From Azolla caroliniana (taxonomy: Eukaryota > Plantae > Polypodiophyta): 64,000 nucleotides of DNA. The stretch spans positions 3,906,001-3,970,000 of the forward strand of contig JBHGNT010000015.1 of the NCBI GenBank assembly GCA_043228905.1, written 5' to 3'. Positions 9,801-64,000 of this stretch are shown here, piece by piece (position 1 is the first letter of the stretch; every line of letters begins with the position of its first letter). The notes below the pieces were generated by a model, which saw only the letters and a list, made by a program, of their open reading frames with translations, made no database searches and had not been told where the DNA came from. Made by a program: the position numbers and the translations under genes.

Positions 9801-12800
9801 ATCCTTGCTAAGTTTAAGATATGGCGGTAAAGGAACTCCAACAGACTTTGCTTTTGCCATATTAAATCTGTTAAGCACTTTTCCAATGTACTTTTCTTGT
9901 GACAAATACAACAAATTGTCCGTTCTGTTTTTACTAATTCTCATGCCGAAAATATGCTATGCATTTCCCAAATCTATCATAGAATAATCATCGATAAAGG
10001 AAACAAAATATGCAGCACTGCCCAATGATTTTACAGGCAATCTACATACATCAGAATGCACCAAATCTTGCACATTTGGTTTACGAGAGATGCCAAAATA
10101 ATAAGAATTTCTCACTTGTTTGCCAAATAGACTATCATTACAAAAAATCAGCTTTGATCCTTTAACATCAAATCTTTTTAGAGCGGAAAGGACTTCAAGT
10201 CCTTTTTGGCTCATATGTCCTAATCTCTTATACCAAAGCTCTATACGAGAGTGAAATTCAGCAATAGCAAGAAACCTTCCAGGTAAAGCTTTACATTGCA
10301 AACAATACAGAGTGCCCTTTTTGCAACCTTTCGCAATAACAATAGATCCTTTCTTTAGTTTCCACAATCCACCACCAAATAATGTGGTGTTACCATGCAA
10401 ATCCATCTGTCCTACAGATAGCAAACTTTTCTTAATGCTAGGTACATACCTAACATCTTTGAGCACGAGCTCTTGACCATTATCCAAAGACAAGTGTATG
10501 GTTCCAATACCATCAATATTGCAAGCAATATTGTTACCCAAAAGCCCCAGAGTCTACTATCCATGTCTGTGTCAATCCATCATCAATTGACAATAAAGCA
10601 TCAATAACAGTTGTTTTGGTGATTTGCATGTCTTGAACATGAGCTATAAAGGCATCACCTGTAATACAAAGTACATCACCATCTTCACCAGATAGGTCTT
10701 CGATGATAACATTTGAAGCCATATTAGCTTTCTCTGTTGTATTAAACTTATCATCTTTGTTTTTCTTCTCTCCTACATTCTTCTTCCTTTCTAGTTCCAT
10801 CTTCCAATATTTACAATCAGGTTTCTTATGACCTTTACGACCACACTGATAGCATGTGATATATTGTTGCTTTCCTTTCCCTCTACTCTTATCTCTTACT
10901 TCTATTTCTTTGTCCTACATTTGGGTTCCTCTTATCATATCTCCCCCTAATATTGTATGCTGAACCACTGCCTTCTCCACTATATTGCCTTTTAATCTCT
11001 TCACTGAGAATAGAGCCCCACACACCATCGAAGGTCAAGGTGGGGCTATTAGATAGTGAAACAACTAATGTTTCCCACGAATCGGGTAAAGTCATAAGTA
11101 GGAAGATAGCTTTGAGCTTGTCATCAAAAGCTGGTAATCCTGAATCTTGTAGTTGGGAGAGAGTACATGTGAATAACGATAGATGCTCTGTTGCACCTTT
11201 CGCCTCATCAAGCCTCGTACTGACAAGTTTTCTCATCAAATGCACCTGATTCACAGGAGTAGTATTCTCGTAAGTTGTCTTAAGTTTCTCCCAAACTTGA
11301 TGGGCAGTAATCAAGCCCTTTATATCTACAAGAATTTCATTAGAAACAACCATTTTAATATATGTAATGGCTTTCTTATTCAGAGTGTTCCAAGCATCAT
11401 TTTCCATGCTCTCTGGTTTCTTTTCTACGAGAGCATCTTCACAATCTCTTAGAAAGAGGATGCCCAACATACGCTCTTTCCACAATTCGAAACCGTTTCC
11501 ATCAAATCTCTTGATTTCAAAGAGGTTTTTCATTTCAGTTGAAGTGGAGGCCATTGCTCCCAAGATTTATGACAGATGCCTTCAGAAAATTGAACAAAAT
11601 ACCAATAGGAAAGGGTTTGACAATTTTTAATTTTTAATTTTTATTTTTAAAACTGTGTTTTCTGTTGATTCTGAATCTAGAAAAAAAACAGCAAAGCAGA
11701 GGAAAGAGGTTTGGCTCTGATACCAGTTAAAGGTAAAGAGGGATGTTTGAGGGAGCAACTATTTATTGATGATGTTCAGCAAACAAGAGTGTAGTAGAGA
11801 TAAGAGTAGAGGCATAGATTTTTGGGTGTACCCACCGCCTTGATTGGTACACAAGAAACAAAGGTTATTATATTAGTTAACCCTACAAAGAAAGAGGTGT
11901 GTTCACATTACAAAACGAGGTGTCCTGTCCAGGTGAACAATGTGTTCACATATACAAATAATTACCTAATTTGTGAACTACGGGCCTTTACACTTAACAC
12001 CATTAGGGAAACAAAAAATGTGAACCAAAAATGGATAAACTATTGCAAATAAACTTTGGTTTTAAAACCAAACCTAATTGAAACCAAACCAAACCGATTA
12101 ATTTTATTCGAACCAAGAAACTACTAAATCATGGTCTATAGCTAGTGACATGATGAAAATTTAGATTGAACAGAAATGTTTCACTCTTTTAATTTGCAGG
12201 CCTTTTGAGGATTAAAGATGAGTCTTTAGACTGAAACATGTATTAGATAGTTTTTGGTATGATTATTATATAAACCTCTATAAGAAAAAAGAAAAAAGGA
12301 AAAGAAAAAAGGAAAAGAAAAAAGGAAAAAGGAAAAAGAAAAAAGAAAAAAGAAAAAAGAAAAAAGAAAAAAGAAAAAAGAAAAAAGAAAAAAGAAAAAA
12401 GAAAAAAACGAGAAAAAAGAAGAAGAAAAAAACGAGAAAAGAAAAAAGGAAAAAAACGAGAAAAGGAAAAAGAAAAAATAAAGAAAAAAAAAGGAGAAAA
12501 GAAAAAAGAAAAAAGAAAAAAGAAAAAAGAAAAAAGAAAAAAGAAAAAAGAAAAGGAAGATTTAGTTGACATTAACCCGAAAATCTAGTAAGTTGTAAGG
12601 ATGCAACATCCATTAACGTAAAGATTTGGCACAGGAGGATGCGCAAACCGAAATAAAAGCAAATGATCCTTGGATTGAGATATTTTTTAAGCCATTGGGT
12701 GTCATGAACACATGACCATTATGGCGTCACCCGAACTTGAACCTCAAACCTTGTAATTCATACTTGAAAACCTCAACCATTAAGATAGCTTATTGTTATA

Positions 12801-15800
12801 TGAAACAATAAAAGCTACTTCTTGTATTACATTGATTATTGTAAAAACTCTAGATTATTCTAGAATGTTCTAGAATGTCCTAGAGCATTCTAGGTCTAGA
12901 ACATTCTAGCATTCTAGAAATCTCTAAGCTATTCTATAGAAACCTATAAATAAGCGCATACATGTATTCTCAAATCAATTCGAATCAACACCAGTCTTTA
13001 GCTCTCATTACATATCTTGTATCCATTCTCTTTCTTTCTCTATCTTATACATCCATTCTTCTCTATCCTTCTTCCATCACTCTATCTTTTATCCTTGGTT
13101 CTAACATTGGGTGGACTCAAAATGGAAAAGACCAGAAGATGTTGGGATCTTAAAATAAGGATATTGACATTAGATATTCCAATTACTCTGGCTTGAGGGT
13201 GGGGGGAAACAAGTCTATGTTTGAGGCTTTTATCATTTGGTTCATGGATATGAAAGAAAACAACCTCTTTATCCAAGCAAAGGGCCTTAAAGGACAAAAA
13301 CATATATTTAAATGAAGATCTTATCCTGGGTCAAGTAACACAATGGTATAACAAACATGCCAAAGTGTTGTCTGTAAAGAATGTCAGGGTCATTATTGCA
13401 AACAAGAGAGCTATATGATAATGTATAGCTTATGAGACCTTATGCATGATTATATGGAACATAGTTGTAATTTATTTAAACAAGGAGGGAAAAATTATTA
13501 ACCATTTGTAAAGGTTCTTCTTCATTTGATATATCTCTCTTGGATGTTAAAAAGATATCTATATATCTATCTATCCTAGAGTTAAGGTGTAATCCCTCTC
13601 GCTATATCTATCGTATATGTTGTGCAATGTGATAGGATAGTTGTGAACTTCATCACATCAGTTAGAGATTGAGGAAGGCAACATGAATACCTCTAGAAGA
13701 AATAATTTGCCAATGATGTCATTAGGGAGTAGAATATGAAGAACGCTATGTTTGTCATTGTGTTGTTTTCTATGAAATAAGAGGGAAATACCATTGCCTC
13801 TTTAAGCAAGGCATTAGCCCGATGTGTAATAATGGAATATGAGGTTCAATATTACTTGGGGATTTTTTCGATAGTACTTAAAAGACACAGAGAGAAGTTG
13901 TTGAAGGACAACAACACAGCTACACAAGCTCATCAACAAAGAATAATTACAACTTTCTTTAAGCCGAATGAGATCCCAACCAGGACATTGCAAGGGGATC
14001 ACAATAGATTAGGTAATGACAAATTTTCATGCATGTATACCTTGTCCTTGTGGACCATGATCTCACCACCCTTATCAAAACCATTATCTCCTGCTATCGT
14101 GGGTGCTTCCCTTGCTTTAGAGACCTCTCCATTTTGGATTGGCCTATACTAGAAATCTTTTGAAGTCAAACAATACGATGTAATCTAACTTGAGAATCTT
14201 ACATGTATAGATGACAAGATTCTTTAGTCATGTCTTAATTCTAATTCTATTTACTTTTTTGTTTAGTTATGTTCACTCCAATTTGCTATTCTCAAATATG
14301 AGACAACATTTTAAGATGTAATCTCTTGTTTGGTCTTATAGGCCATTTTGGCGTTTTAAAAGATGATAATATATCTTTCTTTCTCTTTTAAAACACACTT
14401 CTTACATACATCGTAGGATGGATTTGTTATCAGGCCACCTTATATGGACATACATCTATCCTATGCGCTGCGTAGTGTGATAGGGCAGTTGCGAACTTCA
14501 TCACATCAACTACAAATTGAGGTAGGTAGATATACAAGACTACCTCTAGAAGAGAGAATTTGCCAATTGTGTCATCAAGGAGTGGAATCTGAGGAACACT
14601 ATGTTTGTCATTGTAGTGTCTTTTATGAAATAAGAGGGAGATACCATTGCCTCTTTAAACAAGGCTTTGGCCCACTACGCAAGGTAATGAAATATGAGGA
14701 CCAACGATGCCTAGGACTTTTCTTGCTAGAGATCAAGAGACATCAGGAAAAGTTGCTGAAGAATACAACCACGCAAGCTCATCCACAAAGAACAATCACA
14801 ACGTTCTTTAGCCCCATCACTCCTACTAATGCTACAAGTCCATCACGGGATACACAAATGGGCCCCAGACCAGGACATAACAAAGGGGTTACAATTGATC
14901 AGCCAATAGCAATTTGCTGTGCACGTAGGCCCCGGCTCCATGGACCACGACCTCGACACTCTTGTCATCGACAGATAAAAGCCATTATCTCCCGCCATCG
15001 TAGGTGCTTCCCTCGCTTTGGAGACATTTCCATTCTGGATTGACCTATGCTAGAGATCTTTCGAAGACAAAAGCTACAATATACCTAACTTGAGAATCTC
15101 ACATGTGCCAAAAACCAGATTCCCTCGTTTCTTCTCTTTTCATCTTATTTACTTTTATATTTATTGTGTAATATTTATTTTATTTTGATTTGTTCTCAAA
15201 GACGAGAAAACACTCAAGATGTAATCTCTTATTTGGTCTTATAGGCCATTTTGGCCTCTTAAAAGACGTTAATATATCTTTCTTTCTTTTTAATTATCTC
15301 GGGGATTATAAGTTAAAAGCCTAAACTTTTGTATCCTTAATAACTTGTGATTACATTAAGTGGACTAATGTGACTAGATTGAGCTGGTGACATCTTGTCT
15401 CTGGGTGGAAACATGGTGAAGTTTTTTTGTGGTTAAGCATAAAGTTTTGTCTTGTATGTGTAAGTTGTAGATTCGAATTAGTGTTTGCTTTAGCAGTTAG
15501 TCTACGCATAAGTAGCTTGAGTGTGGTTGACACACATTTTCACTCATCTTTCCCACAAAAAGGTAGACAATGGTACGTCTGTGCACACCAACCTTGAGAT
15601 GGTTCTCAAGAAGATCACCGAGTAAGAAGTAGCCTTCGGTAAGGATAGTAAAAGACATTGCATATTTGGTGCTGCTATTGGGCATTAGAACCACCACTTG
15701 AAACTAGTGGTGAGCTTATTGCAAGCTCCCATGATTATGCCTAGGCTAAGGAGGTGAGGAAGAACCACCTCCGAATCTTAATTTTTACATTTTTAGTTAT

Positions 15801-18800: not shown

Positions 18801-20408
18801 TATCTGTAGGATAGATGGATTTGCATGGTTACACCACATTATTCGGTTGTGGATTATGGAAACTAAAGAAAGGATCTATGGTTATTGTGAAAGGTTGCAA
18901 AAAGGGCACTATGTATTGTTTGCAATGTAAAGCTTTACCTGGAAAGTTTCTTGCTATTGCTGAATTCGACTCTCGTTTAGAGCTTTGACATAAGAGATTA
19001 GGAAATTGAAGGGAAACCAAAATACAAGGCAAGATTAGTTGCCAAGGGTTATGCACAGAAGGAAGGTATTGACTTCCAAGAGGTCTTCTCTCCTGTTGTG
19101 AAGATGACCACACTTCGTGTGCTATTTGCTCTCACTGCAATACTTAATTTGGAGTTGTACCAAATGGATGTAAAGACCGCTTTTTTGCATGGTGATATTA
19201 ATGAAGAGATCTACATGAAACAACCTGAGGGTTTTGTAGTCTCTAACAAGGAGCATTTGGTATGCAAACTAAAACGTAGGTTATATGGCCTAAAACAAGC
19301 ACCACGACAGTGGTATAAGAAGTTTGATACTTTTATGCTTTCTCAAGGCTTTGATCGTAGCTATGCAGATCATTGTTTATACACGAAAAAGGATATCGAT
19401 GACAATCCTATCATACTTGTTCTATATGTGGATGATATGTTGCTAGCTGGGAAAAGAAAGACTAGTCTTGATGCTCTAAAAGTTCAACTGAAATTGGTCT
19501 TCTCTATGAAAGATTTGGGAAATGCAGAGCATATTTTGGGCATGAGAATCAGTAGAAACAGAAAAGACAAATTGTTGTTTTGGTCACAAGAAAAGTACAT
19601 TGAAAAAGTGCTTAACAGATTTAATATGGCAAAAGCAAAGTCCCTTGGAGTTCCTTTGCCGTCATATCTTAAACTCAGCAAGGATGATTGTCTAAAGGAT
19701 GAGATGGAAATCAATGCTATGAATGGAATTCCTTATGCATCAGCATGTGGTTCTCTAATGTATGCTATGGTAGCTACTCGACCAGATATTGCTTATGCAG
19801 TGGGAGTTGTTAGTCGCTATATGTCTAATCCTGGGAAAGCACATTGGGAGGCTGTCAAGTGTGTTTTCAGGTATCTTATGTGAGAAAAGCTGTTAATAGC
19901 AGTAGCGGAAGACTTAAAACAAAATAGGCACAGCCAAGCTGTGAGAAGGCTGTTAGACAGCAGTAGAAAAAATGGTGGCAAAGAGCAAAGACACAGCCAA
20001 GGAATAGAGCTTGTTTTAAGTAACAAAAAAGAAAATGAAAACTTATACAAAAGAGGCTGGTATAGCCTATTTATACAAAATTGGGGAATGTGGGTGAAAT
20101 GGCTGTTTGGTAGTTAAGTGACTCTTGTACTACCAAACAGGTACAAAAAACTAGGAATATCTTGGAAAAGGTAGAAGAGAGAAAAGGCATTTAAAGCATT
20201 GCAGATTTTAGAGAGAGAAGGCATTTAAAGAGTTGCAGATTCTAGAGAGAGAAGAATCTGAGAAAAGAGAGAATGTAGTACAAAGATAATAAATATGAAA
20301 GAGAGTGCAGGGCTGGAGCTGCCACCCTCCAACACCTCCTCTTAGCTCCAGAACGGCAGTCCAACATTGAGTCAATCAAGGAGCTGATTAATGGCATGCC
20401 TTGGAAGC

Positions 20409-20498
<90 letters not shown>

Positions 20499-29400: not shown

Positions 29401-32400
29401 TTTACCTTAACTTACCTTAACTTTCTTACCCTAAAAATAAATACCTTATAATAAATAATGAGTGCCAAAGTATGGTATTTACCATACTTCGAGGGTGTTT
29501 TTCATACTTGAATGATAAGAATGTTCACGAATGCAAATGCTTCATACTATGCTTGGAACTAAGGACATTTTGATGTCAAACCTCCTCACTAGTCCAGATT
29601 TCTGCATTGCCGAGTCAAACCATTGCTCTTTGGAGAAGTGATAGAAATTCCATGTGGGAATTGTGTACTTAAAGCCTGGGTATTCTATAACACATCATAT
29701 GAATGCATATGTATGAGTCTTCATCTACTCTTGGCCACTGAGGATACCATATCAATACTACAATATATGCATCTTGTAGCTGACAAAATATATTCTCCCT
29801 TAAACTAAATTCTGCATAATGTAGATTTCTTCTCACATGTTTCTAATTCAAACTTCTGTTGGCGTTAAGATTTGATTATGCCTCTTCGCTGATTCATTCA
29901 CTTGCTTGCACATACGTGAGTCGTGACCTCTCTCCTCCTCTCCCAGCTGTCCTCCGGTAAGGGTGTCGCGATTGGCCTTACCTTCCGGTCCACAGTCTTG
30001 TACTTAGTGCCCACTTGGGCGGTCCGATCCGCCCTGACCATCTTCCCGAAGTCCGCGATGACTTTGTACATTTCAACCGAACTGACCAGAATCATCCGGT
30101 CTTCGCTCAGATCCTCTTCGACTGCCCTCTCGATATGCCCGAGAGTGTTGTCGAACGAGACCGCCTCCACTATGCCACTGATCTCTTCGTCGGGGCCCAA
30201 GGCTCCGCAAGCCTTCAAGCGCCCTTCGACTTGCTTCTTTTCCCGGCCACCGATGCCGGCTATGGTACAACCTCCATTAACAGAGGGCCAAAATTTCCTA
30301 CCTATTGTACAGGTGTGGGGATTCTTCCGGTCGTTTGGACTATCAGTCCCAACGGGAGACAAGTGGAAGACAATTTTCTGCACTCGATATGGGCATTTTG
30401 AGTATACAGGCATGCTATTCAGGATCACAAACGCACCATTAGTTTTTCAGCACATAGAAAAGGGCGTTTTTCGAGATCTTTTGAACATCTTTCTAATCAT
30501 CTATCTAGATGATCTATTGATTTATTCAAAAACACAAGAGGAGGATGATTCTCATGTTTGTCAAGTACTAAAATGACTATGAGAATATGGCCTTTATGCT
30601 AAACTTGCAAAGTGTAGTCTTGACTGCAAACAGTGCAAACAGGTGGAATTCTCGACGATTTCATCTCCGCTGAAGGAATCTCTTCAGTCAATGCCTTTAT
30701 GGGTTGCCTCCCACTCCCTCCTTACCCCACGATATGCTAGATATTTTGTAAGGCCAAATTGCTGGTTTCCTAAACTTATGGACAAATTATGTGATTTCTT
30801 GACAAGCCTATTGCAAGGTTGATATAAAGGAGAGTTAGCTAACAAAATAATCTTAATGAAAGTCTTTCAGATTTGAAACAGTATGCTGAACTCTATGTCT
30901 CACACTAAATGCAGGCTTCCACAAGAAAGGTGTATAATTTTTGTGGAAAGAGTTGTAACAGCAAAAGTCTTGGCAAGTTTCCTTTCTTCTATTTTTGAAT
31001 CTGTGCAGTGCCACTACGTTGTTGGAGGGATGCACTCCTCATCCAGAAAATCTCTGACAGACACAGTAAATAAATTTCGGTCGGGACAAGTAAGTCTTTT
31101 CTTATTGGATTTCACAGGGTTATTTTTTCTGGAAAATATAACAAGGCATTTACAGAATGCATATATTCTCATGAATACAGTGCATTTGCAGATTAACCTG
31201 CTGATTGCAACAAGTGTAGCAGAAGAAGGATTAGATATCCAGCAATGCAACTTGGTAATTCAGTTTGACATGCCAAAAACACTACGCAGCTATATACAGT
31301 CACGTGGGCGTGCACGTGTGCGGGCTTCTCACTACATTATTCTCAAGGACAGGTGGCACTCTAATAGATGTAATTGTAGTTTAAATAGATTGTTGCTTCT
31401 AAACGTAAACAAAACAAAACTACCCTGCACAGGGCAAATATTGCTGAAGAAAAGTTGCTAGATGCACTTGTTCACAATGAGCATTTTGTAAAGGAAAAAA
31501 TTATGAATGATTTTCAAACAAGTACTGCTTCAACCAGAAAGTCCCAGAATTTGGAAACAGAAATGTTCCAAGTGGAGAAGACAGGAGCAATTGTAAGCAT
31601 CCAATCAAGTGTGCAATTGCTCCATTTTTATTGCTCCACGCTTCCGGGTGACAAGTAAGCCTGAACTTTGAATGTATTTGCACTGATAACATTTTGAATT
31701 TTTCCTTTTATTTGATTAAAAAACATCCTAAGTTTAATTGGAAAAAATAACTTTAGATTGATAGATTGAAAATAAATTTCCTATAATGGCATGGCATTTC
31801 TGATTTACCATTTCCAGCATTAGTTATCTGGACATACGATATATATCGGCTGATTAGTAGTTGAACTTGTGAAAACATTGCCGAGGAGTTTTGAAACAAG
31901 AACATTTGATGTATTTTGCATGATAGAGGGGTTTATTAGCAAGTGATCTTGAATTTAAGGCTTCGTGTTTTTGCTAAACTATTTCTGCCTTCATGCATGA
32001 CTAATAATCTCTACATTATTGATTTATCAGGTTCTATAGTCCCAAACCCATATTCAGATATAGCTCTGAACCAGATGGAATAAAATGCGATGTTCTTCTT
32101 CCTTCAAATGCATTAATTAGGTTTGTTGCAGGAGAACCACGGATGTCGAAATCTGTCGCGAAGAAGGCAGTTTGCTTGAGAGCATGCTTTATATTGCACT
32201 TAAAAGGAGAATTAACAGATAATCTTCTACCACGAACAGGCAGCATCCCAAGTGAAAATAGTGACAGCTCTTTTAATTCCAGTAATATGGGAAAATGTGG
32301 GTAACATTCTCTGACGGTTCTTGACTTGTTTAATAGCGTTTCTCAAGCTCATGGAAATATTTTTGCAGCTTTAATACTGCAGGAAACCATTGTACCAGCT

Positions 32401-35400
32401 GTTTGGATCCTCCCAACAAAGACAATCAACCCCAATATAATATCTTTGCACGCATACATGATATCTTTTGTTGGTACTCCTGCTAACCAGGAGTACACAA
32501 GTTTTGCATTATTGCTACAATCTCCGATGCCAGAAACTGTTATAAATATCTCATTAATTCTTGAGTTGCGTCACGGGAAAACAGTGTCGTGCAAGCTGGA
32601 ACCAATTAAAAATATCTCTCTTGATAATGAACAGGTAATTTTGAATAAGACAAAACCCCCTTTATTGCAGATAAAATATCGTTGACAACCTCAGGAAACC
32701 TAATTTAATTTATTATTTATGGAATGATTTCTCCAAAGAGACCCTGAAAGTGTAATTCAGAACATCAGAAATTGGCTTTATCACGAATCTGATAGAGAAA
32801 AGTCTTTCATTCATTTAGGTTCAAATAATATGATGCAAAGATACAGGGTAATGCGAAGATTCTTGTACTCTTACTTTTGAGTTTGTCTTGTCAGTACCGT
32901 GAAACTTTCTTTTTCTTGGAATAAAGGAAGTGCAATGAATTATTATACAAAGCCAAAGAACTTCAAGATTTGAAGAAAAGTATTATATCAACAAAGTTCT
33001 GTTATAGCCCGAAATCTGTTTCATACGAATACACATCAAAGGGGAGAGAGATGATTTTCAGCCTGAGAAATATGCTGAATCATATTTAGTAGTTACCTGA
33101 GAAATTTAGATGGAAGAAGAATTAGTAGTGGTCAGTTCTCATGAAAAGGAACTTCCACCTGTATTTTAGGCAGCTGTGAATTTGTGGTTAAGGTTCAAGT
33201 AATAGAAACCAGGCTCTTCAATATATTAGTGTTTTATTTCCCTGGGACGTAGTACAGAGAATGGGACTATGCATGCCGTGTTTTATTTATACTTTCAACT
33301 ATGGGGCTAGAACTGAGATTTGTTGTGTTAGTACCAATTACCATAGGTTTATCTGCAACCTTTGTACTTGTATTAGTGGACTGCTTATTATTGCCGACAT
33401 GAATTTTCTTATATGGGATATTTATGGTTCAGAACTGAACTACATTTGGGAGAATAGGGGCCGCTTTTCCTGTAAACACAAATATAGTGCTTTTTCAGGG
33501 GCTTACTTTAGTTCCTAGGCTGCCTGACAATATTAAGAGCACATGGAGGAACGTTCTTCCTACTTATTTCTCCACCTGGAGGTACAGGAAGGATTGAAGG
33601 TACTAGAGAGACCAAAACAGCTACTATTAACACACTATTTCTTAAGTAATAATATTATTTCGAAGTATCAGTCGAAATCAAATTCTTAATTCTAATTTAT
33701 TGAGTAGTCGGATCAATTGTGAACCTTCCCCACAATAAAGATCTGACGTTTTGGCATATTATAGAAATACAGGTTATGCTTTCAAGTATCCATTAATTGA
33801 TGAGAGATTGAATGGTGCATTTTCCCAATTAAACATGATCTAATAAAGATTTACTTTGCTATAGATAATGCATTTGTGTTTGATGGCAGATCTCTCAAGC
33901 AGAAAAGTATCAGTCAACATTGTTTTCAATCATATTAGATCATAATTTGGAAAATCTAAATCATGTGCAAAGGTTCACAACAGATGAGGGATGGTATTTA
34001 CTATTACCAATGAGATCAAGTCAAGATTTTACTCACCATGAAATCGATTGGATTAGAATACATGAACTTTGCACTTCCAGACAGTCTCATTCTGTGGAAT
34101 TTCAAAATGAGACCTTTTCTAGTTCCGTCACTGGAACCTTACAATTCACAAATGCAATTATTCCAGTAAATGAGGTTCCTGGTTTGCTGGTTAGAACTAC
34201 AGGAGGAAATAAACTTTACAGAATAATGGACGTTTTCAACAATTTAACTCCTCTTAGTCATTTTCCAGATCCCAAGTACGAAAATTATGTTGATTATTTC
34301 CAGAAAAGGTGAGACATTTTTTGGTTTCTTCAGTTTCACCTGGTTCTAGGACTTCAATCATCTGACTCCTACAGATTCTTTTCAGACACAATATAGAAAT
34401 TCTGCATGCAGAACAACCTTTACTAAAGGCTAGTTTTTTAGGAGAAGCGTACAACTGTTTGCAAGTCAGACATGTAAAAAAAGGTAACGCAACACCCCAA
34501 CTTCTACTGCCAACACTGTTGCATCATTCTCTTTTAATTTATTCTTATAGAAGGGATAACATTTTTGTTTCCAATCAGATGTAAATGACTACAATATGGG
34601 GAACTCGTCTTACCATCCTAAGTCAATTGTCGAGCTTCCTGCTGAGATTTGTGATATACTCATGTATGGTTTGCATGACAGTCTTGTCAATGCCGCCATT
34701 CTTTTGCCATCGTTCATGCAAAGGCTTGAAGGTATTCTTGCTGCAACTCAGTTGCGTGATATTTTCAGTTCACAGTTTCCGCAGGGATCACTTGTTTCGG
34801 TTGACAAGGTGCTCTTCTTTCTTCAATCTTTGACAATGTGGGCATTATTATGAAGTCCCAGACTAATTTTTTTATTTGCCTTAAGGTTTTAGAAGCTCTG
34901 ACAACAGAAAATTGTTCTGAACATTTTTCACTTGAAAGATTGGAGCTGCTTGGAGATTCGTTTTTGAAGTTTGCTGTTAGCTGCCAGCTATTTGTGAGAC
35001 ATAGTGAAGCACATGAAGGATTTCTGAGCTTGGAGCGCAAAAAGAAGATCTGCAATTCGTCACTATACATGCTTGGGAGCAATTATGGTCTTCCTGTATG
35101 TCCTTTATGTGGATCTTATAAATATGTATTTGTTAAGAATCTCAAGTAGATTAAATTATCAATGGGTCTTTTTCCTTTGCAGAATGTCTTGAGGTATTTC
35201 ATGATGCTCACAGATTACTGGAATGAACCTAGAGGCCTTAGTCATTTAATGTAGAAAACTTGAAAATAGTCACATAGTCTTGTAGTTTCATATTAAATGA
35301 ACCCTAAACAAGGTTGGCAAAAGTTGTTATGGCTTCATTCAATTTGGTTTATCCTAAACAAGAAAAGTTGACATCTGAGGTGCTAACTACTTCTAAATAT

Positions 35401-36315
35401 TTGCCAGCCTAAAGAGTAGAAGTGGCGAAAATGAAGAGGTAGCTATGGTAAGAATCTGTGAAGAAATTCTAAGAGATCATTATCATCGTTATGTGAAATG
35501 ACATTTGGTCATCTCCAGAAGCTATAAAACAGAATCAAGCCCCTCCCCCTCTGATGTTGCCTTGCCACTTTGAAATTGTGTCTTTAGCCTCTGATCGCAT
35601 TGTTCCTATCGCGAGTTCCTTTATATCTATCTTGATTACTGGTCCTTTGACATGTTAATCTAACAAAGGGTTGCAGAACCAGGTGAAAACCAATTGTCCT
35701 TTTTAGAATGACATTTCAATTTATTTCCGTTGTCTGGACGTCTTCACTATCATTGATTCCAGCATTGTCTTGTTTGAAAATTAAATAGGCCAAACATCAC
35801 CACTTTCACCTAGTAATCTACCTTACTGTTAACATTGAGATTTTTGTAATAAACTCTGTTTAATGTACGACTTTGCCCCCCTACAACAATCAACTCGTAA
35901 AACCTGTAGACATTCCAGGACATCACATATTAAATTGTATGAAACAGTGAATTATTATGATACTCAAAGAAGTGTTTACCTTTGCCATTGCTTGATCTCT
36001 TGTATTGAAGGAGCAGGACATTAAGGTGAGGTTATTGATAATGCCAAATTGCATTAACTCATTGAGCCTATGTTACCCAATATTACTATAAGGTCATTGA
36101 CAGTACCAAATTGCTTTAGGTCATTAATAATAGGGATGTGTTTTATACTATGAATTCCCTATCGAGGAAGAATGCAATGGACTAATTGAGTTATTGATTT
36201 TGTGGCTGTGGCATGAGATTTCCATTCATTCACTAACACTCATCATATAATTGAATGATCCCTCTTCCAGGTCAAGAATATTTCAAATAGATGTTGATGC
36301 ATAACAAATCACAAG

Positions 36316-36383
<68 letters not shown>

Positions 36384-39300
36384 CATATTCTGTCTCATCA
36401 TATCTGTTGTATTGATTGATTCCTGTCTTTTCTTGTATTTATAGCTTTTTGCTTTTCATGTCAAGATGGTCGTATAACCTTATGACACTACAGTTAAAAT
36501 TATCAAATATATTCTGCCACTATTTGAAAATTCTTCATATTCTTAATTTACTTTGCAAATACTGAGTATTATCTGTGCTTTTTGAATTTTTCCAAAGATG
36601 CCATGACGTTCTTGGGGTTGTTGACCTTTGTCTGGTAGTTATCTTGAATTTTTGGTAGTGACATTGCTTTCCCTCCAATGGCCATCATCATTGATTACAT
36701 ATTTATCTCCAATTTTTATGAGTACTAGAGACCTCCACTACTGGTGTCTTTTGGAATTCTTCTCTTTATATCTAGGATACTTTTGCATTTGGGGCCAAGG
36801 CAGATGCTTAAACCTACTAATTTTCTGTGTTAATTGTTTTTGTCAGAGTTTTATTCGTGATCAGGCATTTGATCCAAAATTTTGGATTGCACCTTGCCAT
36901 CGTAGCAAGATTGTGTGCAATGAAAACAATCTTATAGAACTTCATGGAGAACCAGCTGAAAAGAAAGAAAATAAACAACTTATTGTCTGCAGCAAGAGAC
37001 ATAGATGGATGAAGAAGAAAACAGTAGCTGACGTTGTTGAAGCATTGATTGGTGCATATTTAGAAGATGCTGGTGAATTAGCTGCTCTAGCATTTATGGA
37101 AGTGATTGGTATAGAAGCAACTACAGAATACCAAGAGAAACTAGCCATACATTCCTTAAGTGATAAAAATTTGGCACTTATGAGAATGATCAATATCAGT
37201 GCAATTGAAGAGTTTCTTTCTTACAGTTTTAGACAGAAAGGTCTTCTTATTGAAGCATTTACACATGCTTCTTTCATCACTCATCATTCAAGATACTACC
37301 AGGTGTTAGTTAATAGTGTTACAGAACTTTCAGATCTCTCACATCTGTAAATATCGTCCATAACATGTTCTTTATATGTGAACTTTTTTCATGCGTACAT
37401 TAATTTTTTTTGAATATGTATTCAATGTTCCAGCGCCTTGAATTTCTTGGGGATTCCGTTTTGGACTTCTTGATCACACGCCACCTCTACAAAACACATT
37501 CTGCAGCAAAGCCTGGCGAGCTTAGTGATATGAGATCTGCGATTGTGAGCAATGAAAGCTTTGCAAGAATTACGGTGGAACTTGGGCTCTATGAGCATGT
37601 CATACATTCATCTCCTGAACTGAAAGTATGCATAACAGATTTTGTGCGATTTACTTCAGAGAATAGACAAGCTGGAGATTGGGATGGAGATAAATGTCCA
37701 AAGGTAAGGAAACTACCATTTTTAATCAGTTTTTGATTACTGCTCAATCACCATTAAGGCTGCTCCATTGAATCATGAGCCATCAATGCTTTTCTCAGTA
37801 TAATGTGGATGATAAACTTGGTTCATTTTAGAAGGAAAGAAAGAAAGAAAGATATATTAACGTCTATGAAGTGGCCAAAATGGCCTTTAAGACCAAACAA
37901 GAGATTACATCTTAAGAGTTGTCTCGTGTTTGAGAACAACAAAAAAAAAAAAACTAAGTAAATAATATAAAAAGAGGCGAGGTAATCTGGTTTTCGGCAC
38001 TTGTAAGATTCTCAAGCTAGATACATTGTAACTTGTTTCTTCAAAAGATCTCTAGTATAGGTCGATCTAGAATGGAAAGGTCTCTGAAGTGAGGGAAACA
38101 CCTGTGATGGTGGGAGATAATGGCCTTCATCTGTTGATGACAAATTGCTCTTCCATGTGGCCGGGGTCTATGTGCACGACAAATTGCTATTGCCCGATCT
38201 ATTGTAACCCCTTTGTTATGTCCTGGTCGTGAGCCCATTTGTGTATCCCTTCATTGACTTGTAGCATTAGTAGGAGTGATGGGGCTAAAGAAAGTTGTGA
38301 TTGTTCTTTGTGGATGAGCTTTTGTGGCTGTATTATTGTCCTTCAACAACTTTTACCTATGTCTCTTGAGTTCTATCAAGAAAAGTCCTAGGCACAATTG
38401 GTCCTCATACTCCATTACCTTGCATAGTGGGCCAAATCCTTGTTTAAAGAGGCAATGGTATCTGCGTTTGATCTCATAAAAGAGGCAATGGTATCTCCTT
38501 GATGACCCAATTGGAAAATTCTTTCTTCTAGAGGTATTCATGTATATCTGCCTACCTCAATCTCTAACTGATGTGATGAAGTTTGCAGCTGCCCTATCAT
38601 ATGGCGCAGCGCATAGGATAGATGTATTTCCATAAAAGGTGGCTAGATGATGAATCCATCCTCCGGTGTGTGTAAGAAGTGGGCCATCTTCGTACCAAGT
38701 AATATTTTGGGGCTGATCCGTGTTATCTTGTTTTCCAAGTTAATAATATCAGTTCGTGTCACTCTATTCTTTTCCATTTTGGTCATATTTAGATGGGGAA
38801 AGTCCATGCTATATTGGAATGGGGCAGTTAGGATCTCTTTGCTTAGGGACCATTGGATGTCAGTGAATGCTCTAGGAAGGAGAGATTATTAATTTGTGTT
38901 ATGGGAAGCAATGGCGACTAACTAATTTCTAGGCTTGGTTAAGAAAATGGAGCACCAATATAACTTCTGTAAAAGTTTGGTTGGCTGGACCAGGAAGCAG
39001 TAAAGGTTTCTCTGATGAGAGTCTCCTGTGTCTGTAAACCCTGGTACTGAGTGTTGATGAGAATGTGCATTCAATTACAACACTTCTTTGAGAGAGTGAT
39101 ATCTGTCAAAAGGCTACATAGAGTGACATCTTTTCATTCAATAAGAAATGGTTGTGTGAAGATATATTCCAACAAATTTCAGAAAGTACGCAAATTGCTT
39201 TTCTTGTTTTCCACAAGCCAAGAGATTTACTTCCATATATGGTGAGGAGTGACAGTCTACCGCACATTGCCTATCTCTTATGCATAGGTTCAATTTCTTG

Positions 39301-41213
39301 GCATGTGTTAGAGTCGACAATGTTTCAGTTTGTGGTCAGATTGTGGGACACATTTTATGCTGATAGATCTTTAGGCTGTTCTAGTTAGTAACCAATCATG
39401 GCTCAAAGATCTCTTACTATTCATCTCATTGCTCAAATTGTTGTGGAGGAATTAAAACAGAAATGATGCCCCACTTCTGCATACTAATGCCTACCTTATT
39501 TTGCACCAACCATTATTCTAAATGTCACAAAGATGAATGCATAACAAATAAATGTATCATCCGTCAATTAATTGATGCTATGTGAAAGTAGCTTAAATGA
39601 TATGAAAACTATAACTTGTGGATGACCGTTGATGAACAGGTTCTTGGTGATATACTCGAGGCATTAGCTGGGGCTGTATTTGTCGATGGTGATTTTAATT
39701 TGGACCTGACATGGGAAATATTTGAGCCAATTTTGGAACCTGTGATTGCCAATAGAAAAAATAAGATTCATCCTGTACGTGAGCTTCTTGAACTATCCCA
39801 AAAATATGGGTTTCCCTTGGAAACTGATGTGTTTGGTGAAGGTATGGTGAATGTCACCTATACGATTAGAACCTCAAATATTGAAGTCATCACAGGAACT
39901 GCTGTAGCCAAGGATAAAATATCAGCTAAGAGGCATGCTGCTCTTGATTGTTTGAATAAGCTTAAGGTAACATTCTCCATCTTTTTCTGTATCTTTAAAC
40001 AATCTTGATAGTAATGTATGTATTGTGCTCATTGTAGGCCTTGAGTTACACTCATTTAAGCAATCGTCAAGCTAAATTAGCTAAACAAAATAGGGCAGCA
40101 AAAGCATTGTCACATGAATCGAGAACACAGCATAATGAAGTGTTCAATTCTGAAACTCTGACACGTTCTTGTGATGAAAGCGGCCAAAGAAGTACGTTAC
40201 CTTGCTCGTCAGAGCGTCAAAACGGAGTTTCTGAACACACAATTCAAACCATGGCAGAACTTAGTCTTCAAGAACCTTTAGACTTTCAGAGAGACATCGG
40301 ATCTGATATGGAAATAGAAGCAACAGCAACAGAAATAACAGCAAAAGCATCTGGCAAAGGTAGTACACAAGCAATCAAGGATGAAATAATAAGAACGGAG
40401 CATACTGCAACTGAGAGGCAACAAAAATCAAGAGCATTTGGCAATAACATTTTGCATTTGCCAAAGAGTGAAGTTATAAATATAACACCACCAGAGGACA
40501 TCGAATCAGCAAGGATGTTACAATCACAAACAATGGAGAGAGCAGCATGTGGAAATCACATGAATTCGTCTTTCTTACATGATGGTAAGAATAGGCAATT
40601 GCATCGGTAGTTTTTGCGGGTTTTCTTGGATGGGTTTTATACTAAGCCATGATGGTATTTGTGTTCAGGTACATCATTTGGCTTCTCACAGCAATATTTC
40701 CCCGGCCAGTCAATATCACAACTTCATGAGATTTGCTCGAAAAAAAGATGGCAGGTTCCATTCTACGAGTGCATCTGCGAAGAAGGGCCGCCACATGATA
40801 AACGGTAGGAATATGTTACGGGCAATGATGATTGCATATTTTGACTTGAAAGATATGTTAGTATGAAGCTGTAGAATTGGGTTGAGAATTGTAGATATGT
40901 TTATGTTCATTTAAAAACAATTTAAATATAAACATTATGCTATTAGGAGCACATTTTGTGAACCCTAAACATATCACATGTCACATGGCATAATTGAATG
41001 CATGCCTTGTTGTGAAGCCTAAAAATAAGTTTCTTAGATGTCTTTTTTTTGTTGGGTGAATGTTTTTCCAGGTTTACTTTCGATGTAAACTTACAGCTGT
41101 TAGATGTGGGTCTTGTGAAATGCTCAGGCGACCCTAAGAACAAAGTGAGTCTAGCCAAAGATTCTGCCGCAGCTGAGCTTTTGAGTTGGCTCCGATCTGA
41201 ACGATACATCTAA
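6796..41213 (+). CDS. DCL4: Dicer-like endoribonuclease, DCL4-type, 25 coding exons, about 1683 aa (DExH helicase, helicase C, DUF283/Dicer dimer, PAZ, RNase IIIa, RNase IIIb, 2 dsRBD)
   Basis: Manually spliced GT-AG exons: 6796-6869, 25764-25941, 26038-26151, 26233-26367, 26466-26541, 27793-27854, 27943-28083, 28184-28306, 28899-29031, 29115-29205, 30915-31089, 31192-31352, 31433-31654, 32031-32296, 32369-32634, 33890-34308, 34386-34483, 34579-34808, 34886-35095, 36847-37302, 37434-37703, 39640-39966, 40038-40584, 40669-40804, 41072-41213. Total 5052 nt with consistent phases, ending in TAA. Motifs: [82 protein letters not shown]4 subtype inferred from [34 protein letters not shown] and a second dsRBD after a long linker. 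Confidence 0.9.
7752..8065. repeat. ~160-175-bp tandem duplication in intron 1
   Basis: aaggattgggagaaagtgg.tattaaggtctatataatatca...gtagagttc.tgatc...ggggttatgaa occurs twice. Confidence 0.75.
8811..11999 (-). mobile_element. Ty1/Copia element A, internally deleted, TG..TA LTRs
   Basis: LTRs 11728-11999 (5') and 8811-9082 (3'), 272 bp, about 12 substitutions plus 2 indels; TSD CCATT; tRNAiMet PBS TGGTATCAGAGC; PPT; gag (10889-11563), protease DSGA, integrase fused to late RT (FIDDYS|MIDLGNA), RNase H; inserted into an AAACC-rich MITE remnant. Confidence 0.93.
12283..12558. repeat. (GAAAAA)n polypurine tract, about 275 bp
   Basis: Seen directly. Confidence 0.95.
12700..13106 (+). mobile_element. 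Solo LTR (407 bp) of a Tf1/Tcn1-like Gypsy family
   Basis: TGTCATGA...CTAACA; 5-bp TSD TTGGG on both sides; TATA cctataaata; CAATTCGAATCAAC shared with the LTR at 63174. Confidence 0.85.
12722..12787 (-). other. tRNA-shaped A-box/B-box cassette within LTR U3 (not a functional tRNA)
   Basis: Minus strand: TATCTTAATGG...GGTTTGAGGTTCAAGT..GACGCCA with tRNA spacing. Confidence 0.6.
13595..14389 (+). mobile_element. RTE-like LINE 3' fragment, copy 1 (degenerate)
   Basis: Homologous to copy 2; ends ggtcttataggccattttggc...atatctttctttc. Confidence 0.75.
14394..15290 (+). mobile_element. RTE-like LINE 3' fragment, copy 2
   Basis: ORF 14444-15043 [31 protein letters not shown] (non-LTR C-terminal CCHC finger); (TTTC)n tail. 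Confidence 0.8.
16150..17155 (+). mobile_element. RTE-like LINE fragment, copy 3; split by Copia B, resumes at 25130-25557
   Basis: Homology to copy 2 (ggatggatt, gagattgag, atgaaataagaggg, ggagacctctccat); family 3' terminus at about 25497-25557; 5' boundary approximate. Confidence 0.7.
16918..17155 (+). repeat. 238-bp direct repeat, left copy flanking Copia B
   Basis: Matches 25130-25367 with 8 substitutions. Confidence 0.9.
19879..24314 (-). mobile_element. Ty1/Copia element C, very recent, nested in the RT of B; lacks the RT C-half and RNase H
   Basis: 456-bp TG..CA LTRs 19879-20334 and 23859-24314 differing at 2 sites; TSD TCTTA; PBS TGGTATCAGAGC; gag-protease 22227-23627 ([19 protein letters not shown]); integrase and RT start 20557-22029. 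Confidence 0.95.
20411..20493. repeat. Compound (TA)n(GA)n microsatellite inside element C
   Basis: Seen directly. Confidence 0.95.
25130..25367 (+). repeat. 238-bp direct repeat, right copy flanking Copia B
   Basis: Matches 16918-17155. Confidence 0.9.
25764..25941 (+). CDS. DCL4: DCL exon 2 (helicase motif I, LETGCGKT)
   Basis: cag|A TAT CAA ATG ... CAG CAG|gtcag. Confidence 0.92.
26038..26151 (+). CDS. DCL4: DCL exon 3
   Basis: tag|[16 protein letters not shown]...[10 protein letters not shown]|gt, phase 0-0. Confidence 0.9.
26233..26367 (+). CDS. DCL4: DCL exon 4 (DECH box)
   Basis: VLVMTPQ...[20 protein letters not shown]. Confidence 0.92.
26466..26541 (+). CDS. DCL4: DCL exon 5 (GMTAS)
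   Basis: [21 protein letters not shown]|gtgag. Confidence 0.9.
27793..27854 (+). CDS. DCL4: DCL exon 6
   Basis: tgcag|..[11 protein letters not shown]|gta; phase fits both neighbours. Confidence 0.88.
27943..28083 (+). CDS. DCL4: DCL exon 7
   Basis: [17 protein letters not shown]...CKLK|gt. Confidence 0.87.
28184..28306 (+). CDS. DCL4: DCL exon 8
   Basis: EDCL...[15 protein letters not shown]|gtatg. Confidence 0.87.
28899..29031 (+). CDS. DCL4: DCL exon 9
   Basis: acag|AVIDAS...KQYSK G|gtaat; open frame, phase consistent. Confidence 0.8.
29115..29205 (+). CDS. DCL4: DCL exon 10
   Basis: ..[18 protein letters not shown]|gtcag. Confidence 0.87.
29875..30300 (-). mobile_element. GC-rich Gypsy-like pol fragment in intron 10
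   Basis: Abrupt GC shift; minus-strand ORF with [17 protein letters not shown], resembling a pre-RT motif of some Gypsy polyproteins (recognised from memory). Confidence 0.5.
30340..30690 (+). mobile_element. Gypsy/chromovirus RT fragment in intron 10
   Basis: [39 protein letters not shown]. Confidence 0.85.
30915..31089 (+). CDS. DCL4: DCL exon 11 (helicase C, CIIFVER)
   Basis: [15 protein letters not shown]...KFRSGQ|gtaagt. Confidence 0.92.
31192..31352 (+). CDS. DCL4: DCL exon 12 ([18 protein letters not shown])
   Basis: Helicase motifs V and VI. Confidence 0.92.
31433..31654 (+). CDS. DCL4: DCL exon 13 (start of DUF283)
   Basis: [26 protein letters not shown]|gtaag. Confidence 0.9.
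32031..32296 (+). CDS. DCL4: DCL exon 14 (DUF283/Dicer dimer)
   Basis: FYSPKP...LPSNA...[22 protein letters not shown]; donor gtgggt at 32297 chosen for phase. Confidence 0.85.
32369..32634 (+). CDS. DCL4: DCL exon 15
   Basis: [10 protein letters not shown]...YTSFALLL...LDNEQ|gtaat. Confidence 0.85.
33890..34308 (+). CDS. DCL4: DCL exon 16 (platform/PAZ)
   Basis: [26 protein letters not shown]|gtgag. Confidence 0.9.
34386..34483 (+). CDS. DCL4: DCL exon 17 (PAZ, QPLL)
   Basis: ttcag|..[19 protein letters not shown]. Confidence 0.87.
34579..34808 (+). CDS. DCL4: DCL exon 18 (connector helix)
   Basis: VELPAEIC...[19 protein letters not shown]. Confidence 0.9.
34886..35095 (+). CDS. DCL4: DCL exon 19 (RNase IIIa signature)
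   Basis: [26 protein letters not shown]; AAG acceptor. Confidence 0.92.
36320..36380. repeat. (TA)~30 microsatellite in intron 19
   Basis: Seen directly. Confidence 0.95.
36847..37302 (+). CDS. DCL4: DCL exon 20 (RNase IIIa end, IIIb start)
   Basis: [35 protein letters not shown]. Confidence 0.92.
37434..37703 (+). CDS. DCL4: DCL exon 21 (RNase IIIb signature)
   Basis: [27 protein letters not shown]|gtaag. Confidence 0.92.
37835..38900 (-). mobile_element. RTE-like LINE 3' fragment, copy 4, antisense in intron 21
   Basis: Reverse complement of copy 2 ([23 protein letters not shown]); (GAAA)n tail at 37835; may extend towards 39500. Confidence 0.8.
39640..39966 (+). CDS. DCL4: DCL exon 22 (RNase IIIb end and dsRBD1)
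   Basis: [31 protein letters not shown]. Confidence 0.92.
40038..40584 (+). CDS. DCL4: DCL exon 23 (long low-complexity inter-dsRBD linker)
   Basis: tag|GCC TTG AGT TAC; open frame to GAT G|gtaag. Confidence 0.83.
40669..40804 (+). CDS. DCL4: DCL exon 24 (dsRBD2 N-part)
   Basis: [31 protein letters not shown]|gtag. Confidence 0.9.
41072..41213 (+). CDS. DCL4: DCL exon 25 (dsRBD2 C-part, stop)
   Basis: [36 protein letters not shown]. Confidence 0.9.
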
Positions 41214-62539: not shown

Positions 62540-63058
62540 AATGGAAATCTAGACGAATGGACGAATATATTTGAAAGAAGGTTTGTCGCATTGGAACAAG
62601 AAAATCAACGTTTGTTGGGGGATCTTCAACAAATCTCTTTAAAAAAGCAGCAAACGCAACAACAACATGGATAGTTGCAACAACAACATGAGGAGCTAGC
62701 ATTATGCGTGCAACAACTTGAAGCAACCATTGTAGCATTGCAACAACAAGGACCAAGTACTCAAGGGATTCATAAAGAGCCCAAGATTGGCCATCCTATG
62801 AAATTTGATAGAACACGATCACAGTTCAGAGGATTCCTTAATCGGGTACGATCAGTCATTCAAATGCATCATTCCTGATATCCCACCAATGCATTGCGAG
62901 TGGGTCTAGTAGGCACGTTGCTAAGCAGCTCAACTTTGACATGGTTCGCGTCGTTGTTAGAAAAAATATCTCCATTACTAAAAAAATTTGAGGAGTTTCT
63001 AAGCGAGTTTAAAGCATGTTTTGGAGATACTAATAGCATAAGGACGACAATCAACAAT
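62540..63058 (+). mobile_element. Tf1/Tcn1/sushi-like Gypsy gag fragment
   Basis: KEPKIGHPMKFDRTRSQFRGFL..VGTLLSSSTLTWFASLLE..FKACFGD. Confidence 0.8.
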
Positions 63059-63173: not shown

Positions 63174-64000
63174 TGTCATGATATAGCATGGTATGGTTTC
63201 AAAAGGATTTGAACACATGACCTTGTGTTAGTAGGGTTGAAGCCCTACCATTAAGCTATATAAAGAATACATTATTAAGCTATAATACATTATAATATAA
63301 AGAATATTGTTTTCATTTATTATTTCACTTAGGAAATCCATGTATATTCTAGATTTCTCTGGAACATTCTAGAAATGTCAAGAGTACGCCTAAGCCCACT
63401 ATAAAAAGAGGCACGTGGAATTATTGAGAACCAATTCGATTCAACGCCAGTCTTAAGCTTCCTAGTTGTTCTTGTATCTTTCTTCATATAATATAATATA
63501 CTTCTTGTTGTCATCATTATCTATCTCTACTCTCTCTCTCTTTCCTCCTCTCTTGTGATTCTCACACCCTCTTTCACTTATTAGTACTAATCCTCATTCT
63601 TCTCCTCTATCTTTAGTACTAATTCTCCTTACCTCTAGTACTATCTCTAACAGTTTGAACCGAATTGTCTTCAGCTTCGTATCCCTCCTTCCCTTCATAC
63701 TAATCTTCTTATCCTTCCTTCCTCCAATACTATGGCAACTGTTAGCACTCAAGAATATCAACCTGTTTTCTTGGAGCATCAATGCTTGAAAGAAAGGTTT
63801 GTCGCATTAGAACAAGAAAATCAACGACTATTGGGGGATCTTCAACACGCAAATTTCTACCGCAAGTTTATACATGACTACTCAAAGCTTATTTTGTCTC
63901 TCACACAGCTTACCAAGAAGGGATAGTCGTTCATTTGGTCTAAGGAAGTGGACACAACTTTTGTGAGTGTTATAAAAGCATTTATCTCAGCTCCTATTCT
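63174..64000 (+). mobile_element. Tf1/Tcn1-like Gypsy: 5' LTR (63174-63652), self-priming PBS, gag start fused to the RT-RNase H connection; continues beyond the window
   Basis: TGTCATGA...CTAACA; PBS TTGAACCGAATTG; ORF 63732 matches gag at 62570, then ANFYRKFIHDYSKLI..LTQLTKK. Confidence 0.8.
63194..63258 (-). other. tRNA-shaped A-box/B-box cassette within LTR U3
   Basis: Minus strand: TAGCTTAATGG (matches A-box TRGCNNARYGG), GTTCAAATCC (B-box), tRNA spacing, foldable D arm, terminal CCA. Confidence 0.7.

What the first reader, a model, noticed from the sequence alone, without database searches (positions are those of the whole stretch)
63174..63260. Gypsy LTRs carry an antisense tRNA-shaped Pol III cassette in U3
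Seen: about 20 bp inside the LTR at 63174, the minus strand reads TAGCTTAATGGTAGGGC-19nt-GGTC-ATGTG-TTCAAAT-CCTTTTGAAACCA. That is an A box, D arm, B box at tRNA spacing and a terminal CCA. The diverged solo LTR at 12700-13106 (verified by TSD TTGGG) has the same cassette in the same position and orientation (12722-12787), also with 13 nt from the T loop to the end of CCA. Established: Cassandra TRIMs carry 5S rRNA Pol III cassettes in their LTRs, and tRNA genes/B boxes can act as TFIIIC-bound chromatin barriers. Inference: this is a built-in LTR module rather than a chance SINE insertion. Since the family appears to self-prime, it is probably not a primer; it may insulate against silencing or drive an outward Pol III transcript. 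I do not know of a description but cannot check novelty.
Basis: partly seen in the sequence, partly recalled or inferred. Interest (0 to 1): 0.85.

Follow-up and report, generated by a model that had tools for sequence, protein, structure and literature searches.

The report
Backward tRNA remnant inside retrotransposon LTRs
Two diverged lineages of a protein-coding plant retrotransposon carry, backwards at the outer edge of their terminal repeats, the promoter boxes of a decayed tRNA gene, which likely serve as a binding site for the polymerase III factor TFIIIC that would shield the element's own promoter from silencing.

Summary
The cassette is real, tRNA-derived and built in. A profile of 333 unrelated tRNAs ranks window 63260-63200 (minus) first after the one true tRNA (E 1.7e-4). 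Of 25 family LTRs found without using the cassette and with room upstream, 22 carry it; the other 3 are broken at the 5' end. Between the two diverged LTR types, the A and B boxes (0.85, 0.78 identity) are as conserved as the TATA box; the intervening part is 0.38. Two corrections: there is no cloverleaf, and the 'CCA' is tRNA positions 71-73, not the 3' tail. The element is a self-priming Tcn1-like chromovirus with a TATA promoter and long gag/pol ORFs, so an antisense Pol III promoter cannot make its RNA. Helenus TRIMs (Kojima 2024) already carry tRNA-like LTR sequence, but in sense and non-autonomous (5 of 5 LTRs I read), so this is a new variant. Best guess: a TFIIIC-bound barrier (0.4); no binding or RNA data exist. 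The scan earlier noted only a looser fungal parallel (e1-9776494).

The parts
63174..63652 (+). 5' LTR (type A) of an internally deleted Tcn1-like Ty3/Gypsy element, TG...CA
   Evidence: diverse flanks before 63174 (agreement 0.42) mark the 5' boundary
63194..63258 (-). tRNA-derived cassette, tRNA positions 8-73 without gaps
63248..63258 (-). A box (positions 8-19), 0 mismatches to the recalled consensus
   Evidence: identity to B-type LTRs 0.85
63205..63215 (-). B box (positions 52-62), 1 mismatch, at a place where this copy departs from nearly all copies in four runs
63201..63204 (-). T4 run at positions 63-66, a possible Pol III terminator inside the cassette
   Evidence: terminator role recalled, not tested
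63194..63196 (-). CCA = positions 71-73, not the mature 3' tail
63348..63375 (.). TTCTAGAA-type repeats resembling heat-shock elements (label recalled)
63400..63406 (+). TATA box, 31-32 nt before the R motif in 21 of 21 LTRs that hold both
63432..63446 (+). Start of R (predicted RNA 5' end), complementary to the site behind the LTR
63653..63667 (+). Self-primer binding site
   Evidence: duplex with R start -11.6 kcal/mol
63732..64000 (+). gag start fused by deletion to a broken RT/RNase H piece
12700..13106 (+). Solo LTR (type B2) with target-site duplication TTGGG
12722..12787 (-). Same cassette in the solo LTR (A box 12777-12787, B box 12733-12743; one extra base in the D loop)
62579..63055 (+). 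Broken gag fragment of a related element upstream; not part of this LTR's element
   Evidence: 60% to L003 gag

Best explanation
The cassette is a tRNA-derived A-box/B-box pair fixed backwards at the U3 edge of two diverged LTR types of a self-priming chromovirus, and it likely works as a DNA site for TFIIIC that would act as a chromatin barrier keeping the LTR's polymerase II promoter open. Shown: tRNA ancestry, fixed position and orientation, box conservation, loss of the cloverleaf, and a separate TATA/R/self-priming system. Inferred: one ancestral capture of a tRNA gene or SINE head at the LTR start, then retention by selection on the DNA boxes. Untested: TFIIIC binding, and a barrier effect in the heterochromatin into which chromodomain integrases are thought to insert.
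For: tRNA ancestry in both directions: the tRNA profile finds the cassette (13 of 16 copies exceeded by <=2 of 300 shuffles), and the cassette profile hits true tRNAs on the same strand in 93 of 109 hits and on the opposite strand in 0. A-vs-B-type identity: A box 0.85, B box 0.78, TATA 0.78, middle 0.38, U3 beyond the A box 0.39-0.51; boxes vs rest of cassette p=0.010. A-to-B spacing is constant within 1 nt in 16 of 16 copies, while the rest of U3 has long indels. The B box has 0 mismatches in 9 of 16 copies and 1 in the other 7. In four runs, variable sites were 0 of 11 in the A box, 2 of 9 in the B box and 18 of 46 in the rest of the cassette (p=0.015). No conserved RNA fold or covariation on either strand, which points to DNA-level function. 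B boxes bind TFIIIC and act as barriers without Pol III (review passages, PMC12409998); a tDNA barrier is orientation-independent (abstract, PMC2040200).
Against: No binding, chromatin or RNA data. Positions 41-47 and 71-73, which are not promoter elements, are as conserved as the boxes (0.94-0.98), so something other than TFIIIC may be selecting. All 14 B-type copies have lost G10 of the A box. The deep comparison is in effect one split (2 A-type sequences against B types), and the register was anchored on the boxes. Five rows were hidden; if all five fell in the boxes the contrast would vanish (p=0.61), and against the next 40 nt it is only p=0.076. A third related LTR type in L014, Selaginella SM-Tcn1 (read by eye) and a fungal relative (L160) have no cassette, so the clade does not need it. 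Barrier evidence comes from yeasts and mammals, not plants.
Confidence: 0.4

Rival explanations
1. The tRNA remnant is kept for a non-Pol III reason: its conserved blocks were co-opted as polymerase II enhancer sites (the A-box core equals a homeodomain/WOX-type site, recalled) or as element-specific cis signals next to the polypurine tract and integrase end.
For: Non-promoter blocks 41-47 and 71-73 are fully conserved while A-box G10 is lost in B types. The cassette lies in U3, the normal enhancer region, next to heat-shock-like repeats.
Against: The conserved set includes the tRNA-invariant bases (0.90 vs 0.57, p=0.012), a near-perfect B box and tRNA spacing. The A-box core heptamer is common in the window (20 copies).
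Confidence: 0.22
2. It is an active Pol III promoter. From the 3' LTR it makes an RNA antisense to the end of pol, feeding small RNAs or limiting copy number; from the 5' LTR it reads outward.
For: Both boxes at 32-33 nt spacing. In B1 copies the first T4 is 470 nt away (L009) or beyond the stretch read (L003), so a transcript would run through the PPT into the chromodomain coding region.
Against: T4 inside the cassette in type A (63-66) and B2 (25-28) would give 30-70-nt RNAs, so the product is not shared. No conserved fold. A-box G10 is lost in B types.
Confidence: 0.17
3. It is a neutral relic of one old SINE or tRNA-gene capture; the patchy similarity reflects shared descent, few independent lineages and alignment anchoring.
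For: A copy of the LTR's first 6 bases recurs just beyond the A box in L010 and L038, possibly a relic target duplication or old terminus (post hoc). Related LTRs lack the cassette. Small sample.
Against: Non-functional parts of the two LTR types are down to 0.36-0.51 identity while the boxes stay at TATA level. No family LTR with an intact 5' end lacks it (0 of the 25 loci examined).
Confidence: 0.17
4. The cassette supplies or binds a primer for reverse transcription.
For: The T-loop region can pair weakly with the site behind the 5' LTR (-6.8 to -9.2 kcal/mol).
Against: R pairs better in 6 of 6 copies (-9.0 to -13.7), and R and the primer site differ together between types A and B. There is no 3' CCA tail.
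Confidence: 0.04

Closest known systems
Helenus TRIMs / TRIMp3 (Kojima 2024, PMC10886601; parts 1-5 of 6 of the main text, figure legends and supplement passages read)
   Same: tRNA-derived sequence inside the LTR; conservation centred on boxes A and B; mostly not a functional tRNA; not the primer; 5-bp TSD in plant and fungal members; proposed origin by SINE insertion into an LTR.
   Different: Helenus is short, non-autonomous and tRNA-primed. In the 5 LTRs I read in full in supplement passages, the tRNA part is in sense and in the 3' half, so it could transcribe the element. Here it is antisense, 20 nt from the 5' end, in elements with long gag-pol ORFs, a TATA promoter and self-priming. The only plant Helenus reported is from Selaginella.
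Cassandra TRIMs (5S rRNA in LTR; as described in PMC10886601, original paper not read)
   Same: Pol III internal promoter inside an LTR of a land-plant element.
   Different: 5S-derived, sense, non-autonomous, shown to be transcribed from the cassette.
Tcn1 clade chromoviruses (SM-Tcn1, PpatensLTR; PMC2864245 passages and supplement 3, PMC6317226 passages)
   Same: gag + pol with PR-RT-RH-IN-chromodomain, self-priming, non-seed plant host likely; SM-Tcn1 shows a near-identical R motif and primer site by eye.
   Different: SM-Tcn1 U3 shows no A/B-box cassette by eye; the searched terms showed no mention of one in either paper.
tDNA and ETC (extra-TFIIIC) chromatin barriers (PMC12409998 passages; PMC2040200 abstract)
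   Same: B-box-centred DNA element that can block heterochromatin without making a functional tRNA.
   Different: Host-encoded sites in yeasts and mammals, shown by experiment; here carried by a mobile element and untested.

Membership tests
Helenus (TRIMp3) | tRNA-derived sequence with A and B boxes inside the LTR | tested here: met
Helenus (TRIMp3) | Short non-autonomous TRIM without protein coding | tested here: not met
   L003 has gag 389 aa and pol 1235 aa ORFs; the window element holds gag and pol remnants
Helenus (TRIMp3) | Pol III promoter oriented to transcribe the element | tested here: not met
   cassette antisense in 22 of 22 loci and both window copies; sense in the Helenus LTRs read
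Helenus (TRIMp3) | PBS complementary to a host tRNA | tested here: not met
   the site behind the 5' LTR pairs with the element's own R start
Functional tRNA gene | Cloverleaf with acceptor and anticodon stems, stable anticodon | tested here: not met
Independent tRNA-derived SINE insertion | Own TSD and tail, presence/absence among copies | tested here: not met
   longest shared flank word 5-6 nt, no tail, no intact LTR lacking it; a relic duplication from one ancestral event is not excluded
Tcn1-clade chromovirus | PR-RT-RH-IN order with C-terminal chromodomain | tested here: met
   Pfam on L003 pol
Tcn1-clade chromovirus | Self-priming site instead of tRNA PBS | tested here: met
   clade feature from PMC6317226 passages
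Tcn1-clade chromovirus | RT phylogeny grouping with named Tcn1 references | tested here: inconclusive
   closest hits are unnamed metagenome proteins; no tree with named references was built; similarity to SM-Tcn1 judged by eye only
TFIIIC-bound barrier (tDNA/ETC type) | Intact B box | tested here: met
   0 mismatches in 9 of 16, 1 in 7 of 16 (consensus recalled)
TFIIIC-bound barrier (tDNA/ETC type) | TFIIIC occupancy and blocking of heterochromatin spread | not testable with these tools
   needs ChIP and reporter assays

The most novel reading that the evidence does not exclude
An autonomous, heterochromatin-seeking chromovirus has domesticated a tRNA promoter as a portable TFIIIC/Pol III insulator at the outer edge of each LTR, so thousands of copies would scatter barrier elements (and, in some subfamilies, an antisense Pol III unit aimed at its own integrase end) across a non-seed plant genome.
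Probability: 0.35. Interest if true: 0.78.

Novelty: new variant of a known kind. Interest (0 to 1): 0.55.

Why it matters
Known small-RNA-derived LTR modules (Cassandra, Helenus, Ajax) are explained as promoters for short non-autonomous elements. That explanation cannot apply here: the module points the wrong way and the element has its own Pol II promoter, yet the boxes are kept across LTR types that are otherwise about half identical. If TFIIIC binds it, this shows how an element whose integrase is thought to target silent chromatin stays expressible. It would also give a high-copy natural test of whether tDNA-type barriers work in plants. The sister LTR type without the cassette is a ready control.

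Tried and rejected
No whole genome is held, so no genome-wide census was possible. No RNA holder was listed; run X16, guessed to be RNA, is probably DNA and held only as contigs, so there is no evidence on expression either way. ARAGORN at relaxed thresholds is uninformative: 114 calls at 80%, and the 90% calls in family LTRs fall on the TTCTAGAA repeats, not the cassette. The tRNA profile also gave a hit at E 0.033 on the antisense strand of pol in L013, which I treat as background. Parent tRNA not identified: the anticodon region differs among subfamilies, and top reciprocal hits are Asn, Ile, Lys, Met and Thr of viral origin. The strong fold of the window copy (z -4.5) is private; the other 10 copies score between -1.9 and +0.5. 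The R motif gave 0 hits in viral contigs and 10 in prokaryote genomes, which I took as chance from their titles and did not examine further. 10 of 38 metagenome loci were dropped as chance matches without LTR similarity; 3 of the 28 family loci lacked room upstream. C-termini of 51 related pol proteins stop at the LTR start and say nothing on the cassette. The host was not determined: a Dicer-like fragment is 50-52% identical to its best hits, one a fern. The last part of the script failed and was redone. PMC13537249 (abstract only) concerns PBS pairing in Drosophila and does not bear on this. PMC7466625 (passages) has no mention of tRNA.

Full report
Observation. The solo LTR at 12700-13106 has the TTGGG duplication and the same cassette at 12787-12722. 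The 5' boundary at 63174 is confirmed by unrelated flanks in contigs of a public run, and the sequence upstream belongs to another repeat into which the element inserted. Standard tRNA finders see nothing, so I tested sequence ancestry directly. A profile from 333 ARAGORN-called viral tRNAs, run over the window and 38 loci, ranks the window cassette first after the one real tRNA (18.9 bits, E 1.7e-4). In 13 of 16 representative LTRs the best match is the cassette, on the minus strand, reached by at most 2 of 300 shuffles; 3 gave no hit. Conversely, a profile of the cassettes hits true tRNAs on the same strand in 93 of 109 hits, the opposite strand in 0 and non-tRNA DNA in 16, in a set where tRNAs make up 12% of bases (these loci were selected by a D-arm motif, so they are enriched for such tRNAs). 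A simple A-box plus B-box scan finds only the two cassettes in the window and none in 12 shuffles.

Corrections. The CCA ends 13 nt after the T loop, at positions 71-73, so it is not the tail of a mature tRNA. The 5' acceptor strand is missing (1-4 of 7 pairs), the anticodon stem is poor (1-4 of 5) and the anticodon varies. Consensus folding shows no covariation on either strand, and only the window copy folds better than shuffles. It is a promoter-like remnant, not a tRNA-shaped RNA.

The element. A motif from the R region, independent of the cassette, gave 38 metagenome loci: 28 family LTRs and 10 chance matches. Several adjoin long ORFs: L003 has gag (389 aa) and pol (1235 aa) with protease, RT, RNase H, integrase and chromodomain. 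Pol ends within the first 16 nt of the 3' LTR, before the cassette. A TATA box lies 31-32 nt before R in 21 of 21 LTRs that hold both. R pairs with the site behind the 5' LTR (-9.0 to -13.7 kcal/mol in 6 copies), and both differ together between types A and B. This is the self-priming reported for the Tcn1 clade of mosses and club-mosses (PMC6317226 passages). SM-Tcn1 of Selaginella shows a near-identical R motif and primer site by eye (supplement). No tree with named references was built. The host is a plant, probably non-seed, and was not determined.

Built in, and lineage-limited. Of 28 family loci, 3 end too close to judge; 22 of the other 25 carry the cassette in the same orientation, and the 3 without it have lost the whole 5' end of U3. 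Many loci are near-identical, so they amount to about 15 distinct sequences in four groups (A, B1, B2, B3). Contigs of runs labelled organisms A, B, C, D and E cover the cassette. A third LTR type with a related R motif and an intact start (L014:1167-1486) has no cassette; neither has the fungal relative L160 nor, by eye, SM-Tcn1. The module was therefore probably gained once in the ancestor of types A and B. The LTR's first six bases recur just beyond the A box in L010 and L038, a weak post hoc hint that the module was added in front of an older terminus.

Constraint. Between types A and B, identity is 0.85 in the A box, 0.78 in the B box and 0.78 in the TATA box, against 0.38 between the boxes, 0.39-0.51 in U3 beyond the A box, 0.36-0.44 around TATA and 0.44-0.46 in U5. 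Boxes exceed other cassette positions (0.80 vs 0.54, p=0.010), as do tRNA-invariant bases (p=0.012). Spacing is constant within one base in 16 of 16 copies. Among B-type copies in four runs, variable sites were 0 of 11 (A box), 2 of 9 (B box), 18 of 46 (rest of cassette) and 12 of 40 (next 40 nt): p=0.015 and 0.076, with 5 of 45 rows hidden, which in the worst case removes the effect. Limits: one deep split, two A-type sequences, and a register anchored on the boxes. Positions 41-47 and 71-73 are equally conserved without being promoter elements, and B types have lost A-box G10; these facts are unexplained by the Pol III model.

Mechanism. Being antisense, the cassette cannot produce the genomic RNA, and self-priming needs the 5' end at R (inference). 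It is a poorer partner for the primer site than R. A common transcript is unlikely, since T4 runs fall inside the cassette in types A and B2 but not B1 (terminator length recalled). What stays constant is DNA: a near-perfect B box, an A-box core and their spacing at the outer edge of U3, some 140-220 nt from the TATA box. B boxes are the high-affinity TFIIIC site and act as barriers without Pol III (PMC12409998 passages); a fission-yeast tDNA barrier is orientation-independent (PMC2040200 abstract). The moss element RLG1 is suggested to target heterochromatin through its chromodomain (PMC7466625 passages). I therefore favour a TFIIIC-bound barrier or nucleosome-free edge (0.40), over co-option as Pol II or replication signals (0.22), an antisense Pol III transcript (0.17), a neutral relic (0.17) and priming (0.04). 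None of these functions is shown.

Known versus new. Helenus TRIMs (PMC10886601) already show tRNA-derived A/B boxes in LTRs. They are non-autonomous and tRNA-primed, and sense-oriented in the LTRs I read; three defining features fail here. That paper also says that 'not a few' Repbase LTRs resemble part of a tRNA and that only TRIMs under 1000 bp were followed, so autonomous cases may sit unreported in Repbase, which I could not search. Ten literature searches listed no title or abstract describing an antisense tRNA-derived module in LTRs of autonomous or Tcn1 elements; two searches returned nothing. The library lacks most subscription journals, and the REXdb sequence files and the .doc supplements of PMC2864245 could not be read. 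The scan's own notes hold no sequence match and one loose parallel in a fungal chromovirus (e1-9776494), which I did not test.

Verdict. Real, tRNA-derived, fixed in two LTR lineages and probably under constraint. A new variant of the small-RNA-promoter-in-LTR theme whose usual explanation does not fit. Function is inferred only. Interest 0.55.

Noticed in passing
window 63348-63375 and 12848-12920; L003 LTR: Arrays of alternating TTCnnGAA/GAAnnTTC (heat-shock-element-like, label recalled) in U3: 2 units in the A-type window copy, 5 in the solo LTR, 9 in L003. Suggests heat inducibility.
   Followed up: partly
L014:1167-1486 (+): A third LTR type with a related R motif but no cassette; its U3 holds GCATGC repeats instead. 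A natural control.
   Followed up: partly
L011:1360-1467 (-): A miniature LTR-like unit of about 110 nt: A-type terminus and diverged cassette joined directly to a U5-like end, with the promoter and R missing.
   Followed up: partly
L003:3713-3728; L010; related proteins P0030-P0054: The pol ORF reads through the polypurine tract and stops within the first bases of the 3' LTR.
   Followed up: partly
window 63174-63195, 12700-12718: The first 16-18 nt of the B-type LTRs form a small hairpin on the minus strand; role unknown.
   Followed up: no
window about 30877-40600: Exons of a Dicer-like gene (helicase C, PAZ, RNase III, dsRBD). The fragment searched is only 50-52% identical to its best hits, one a fern protein.
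   Followed up: partly
window 8805-25370: Nested Copia elements with large direct and inverted repeats.
   Followed up: no
window 5800-6014: Long hairpin (weak Rfam MIR2599 match far below threshold), probably a MITE-like inverted repeat.
   Followed up: no
L016 (about 1659-1774): One family LTR's 5' end with a partial cassette sits directly in front of a second LTR.
   Followed up: no
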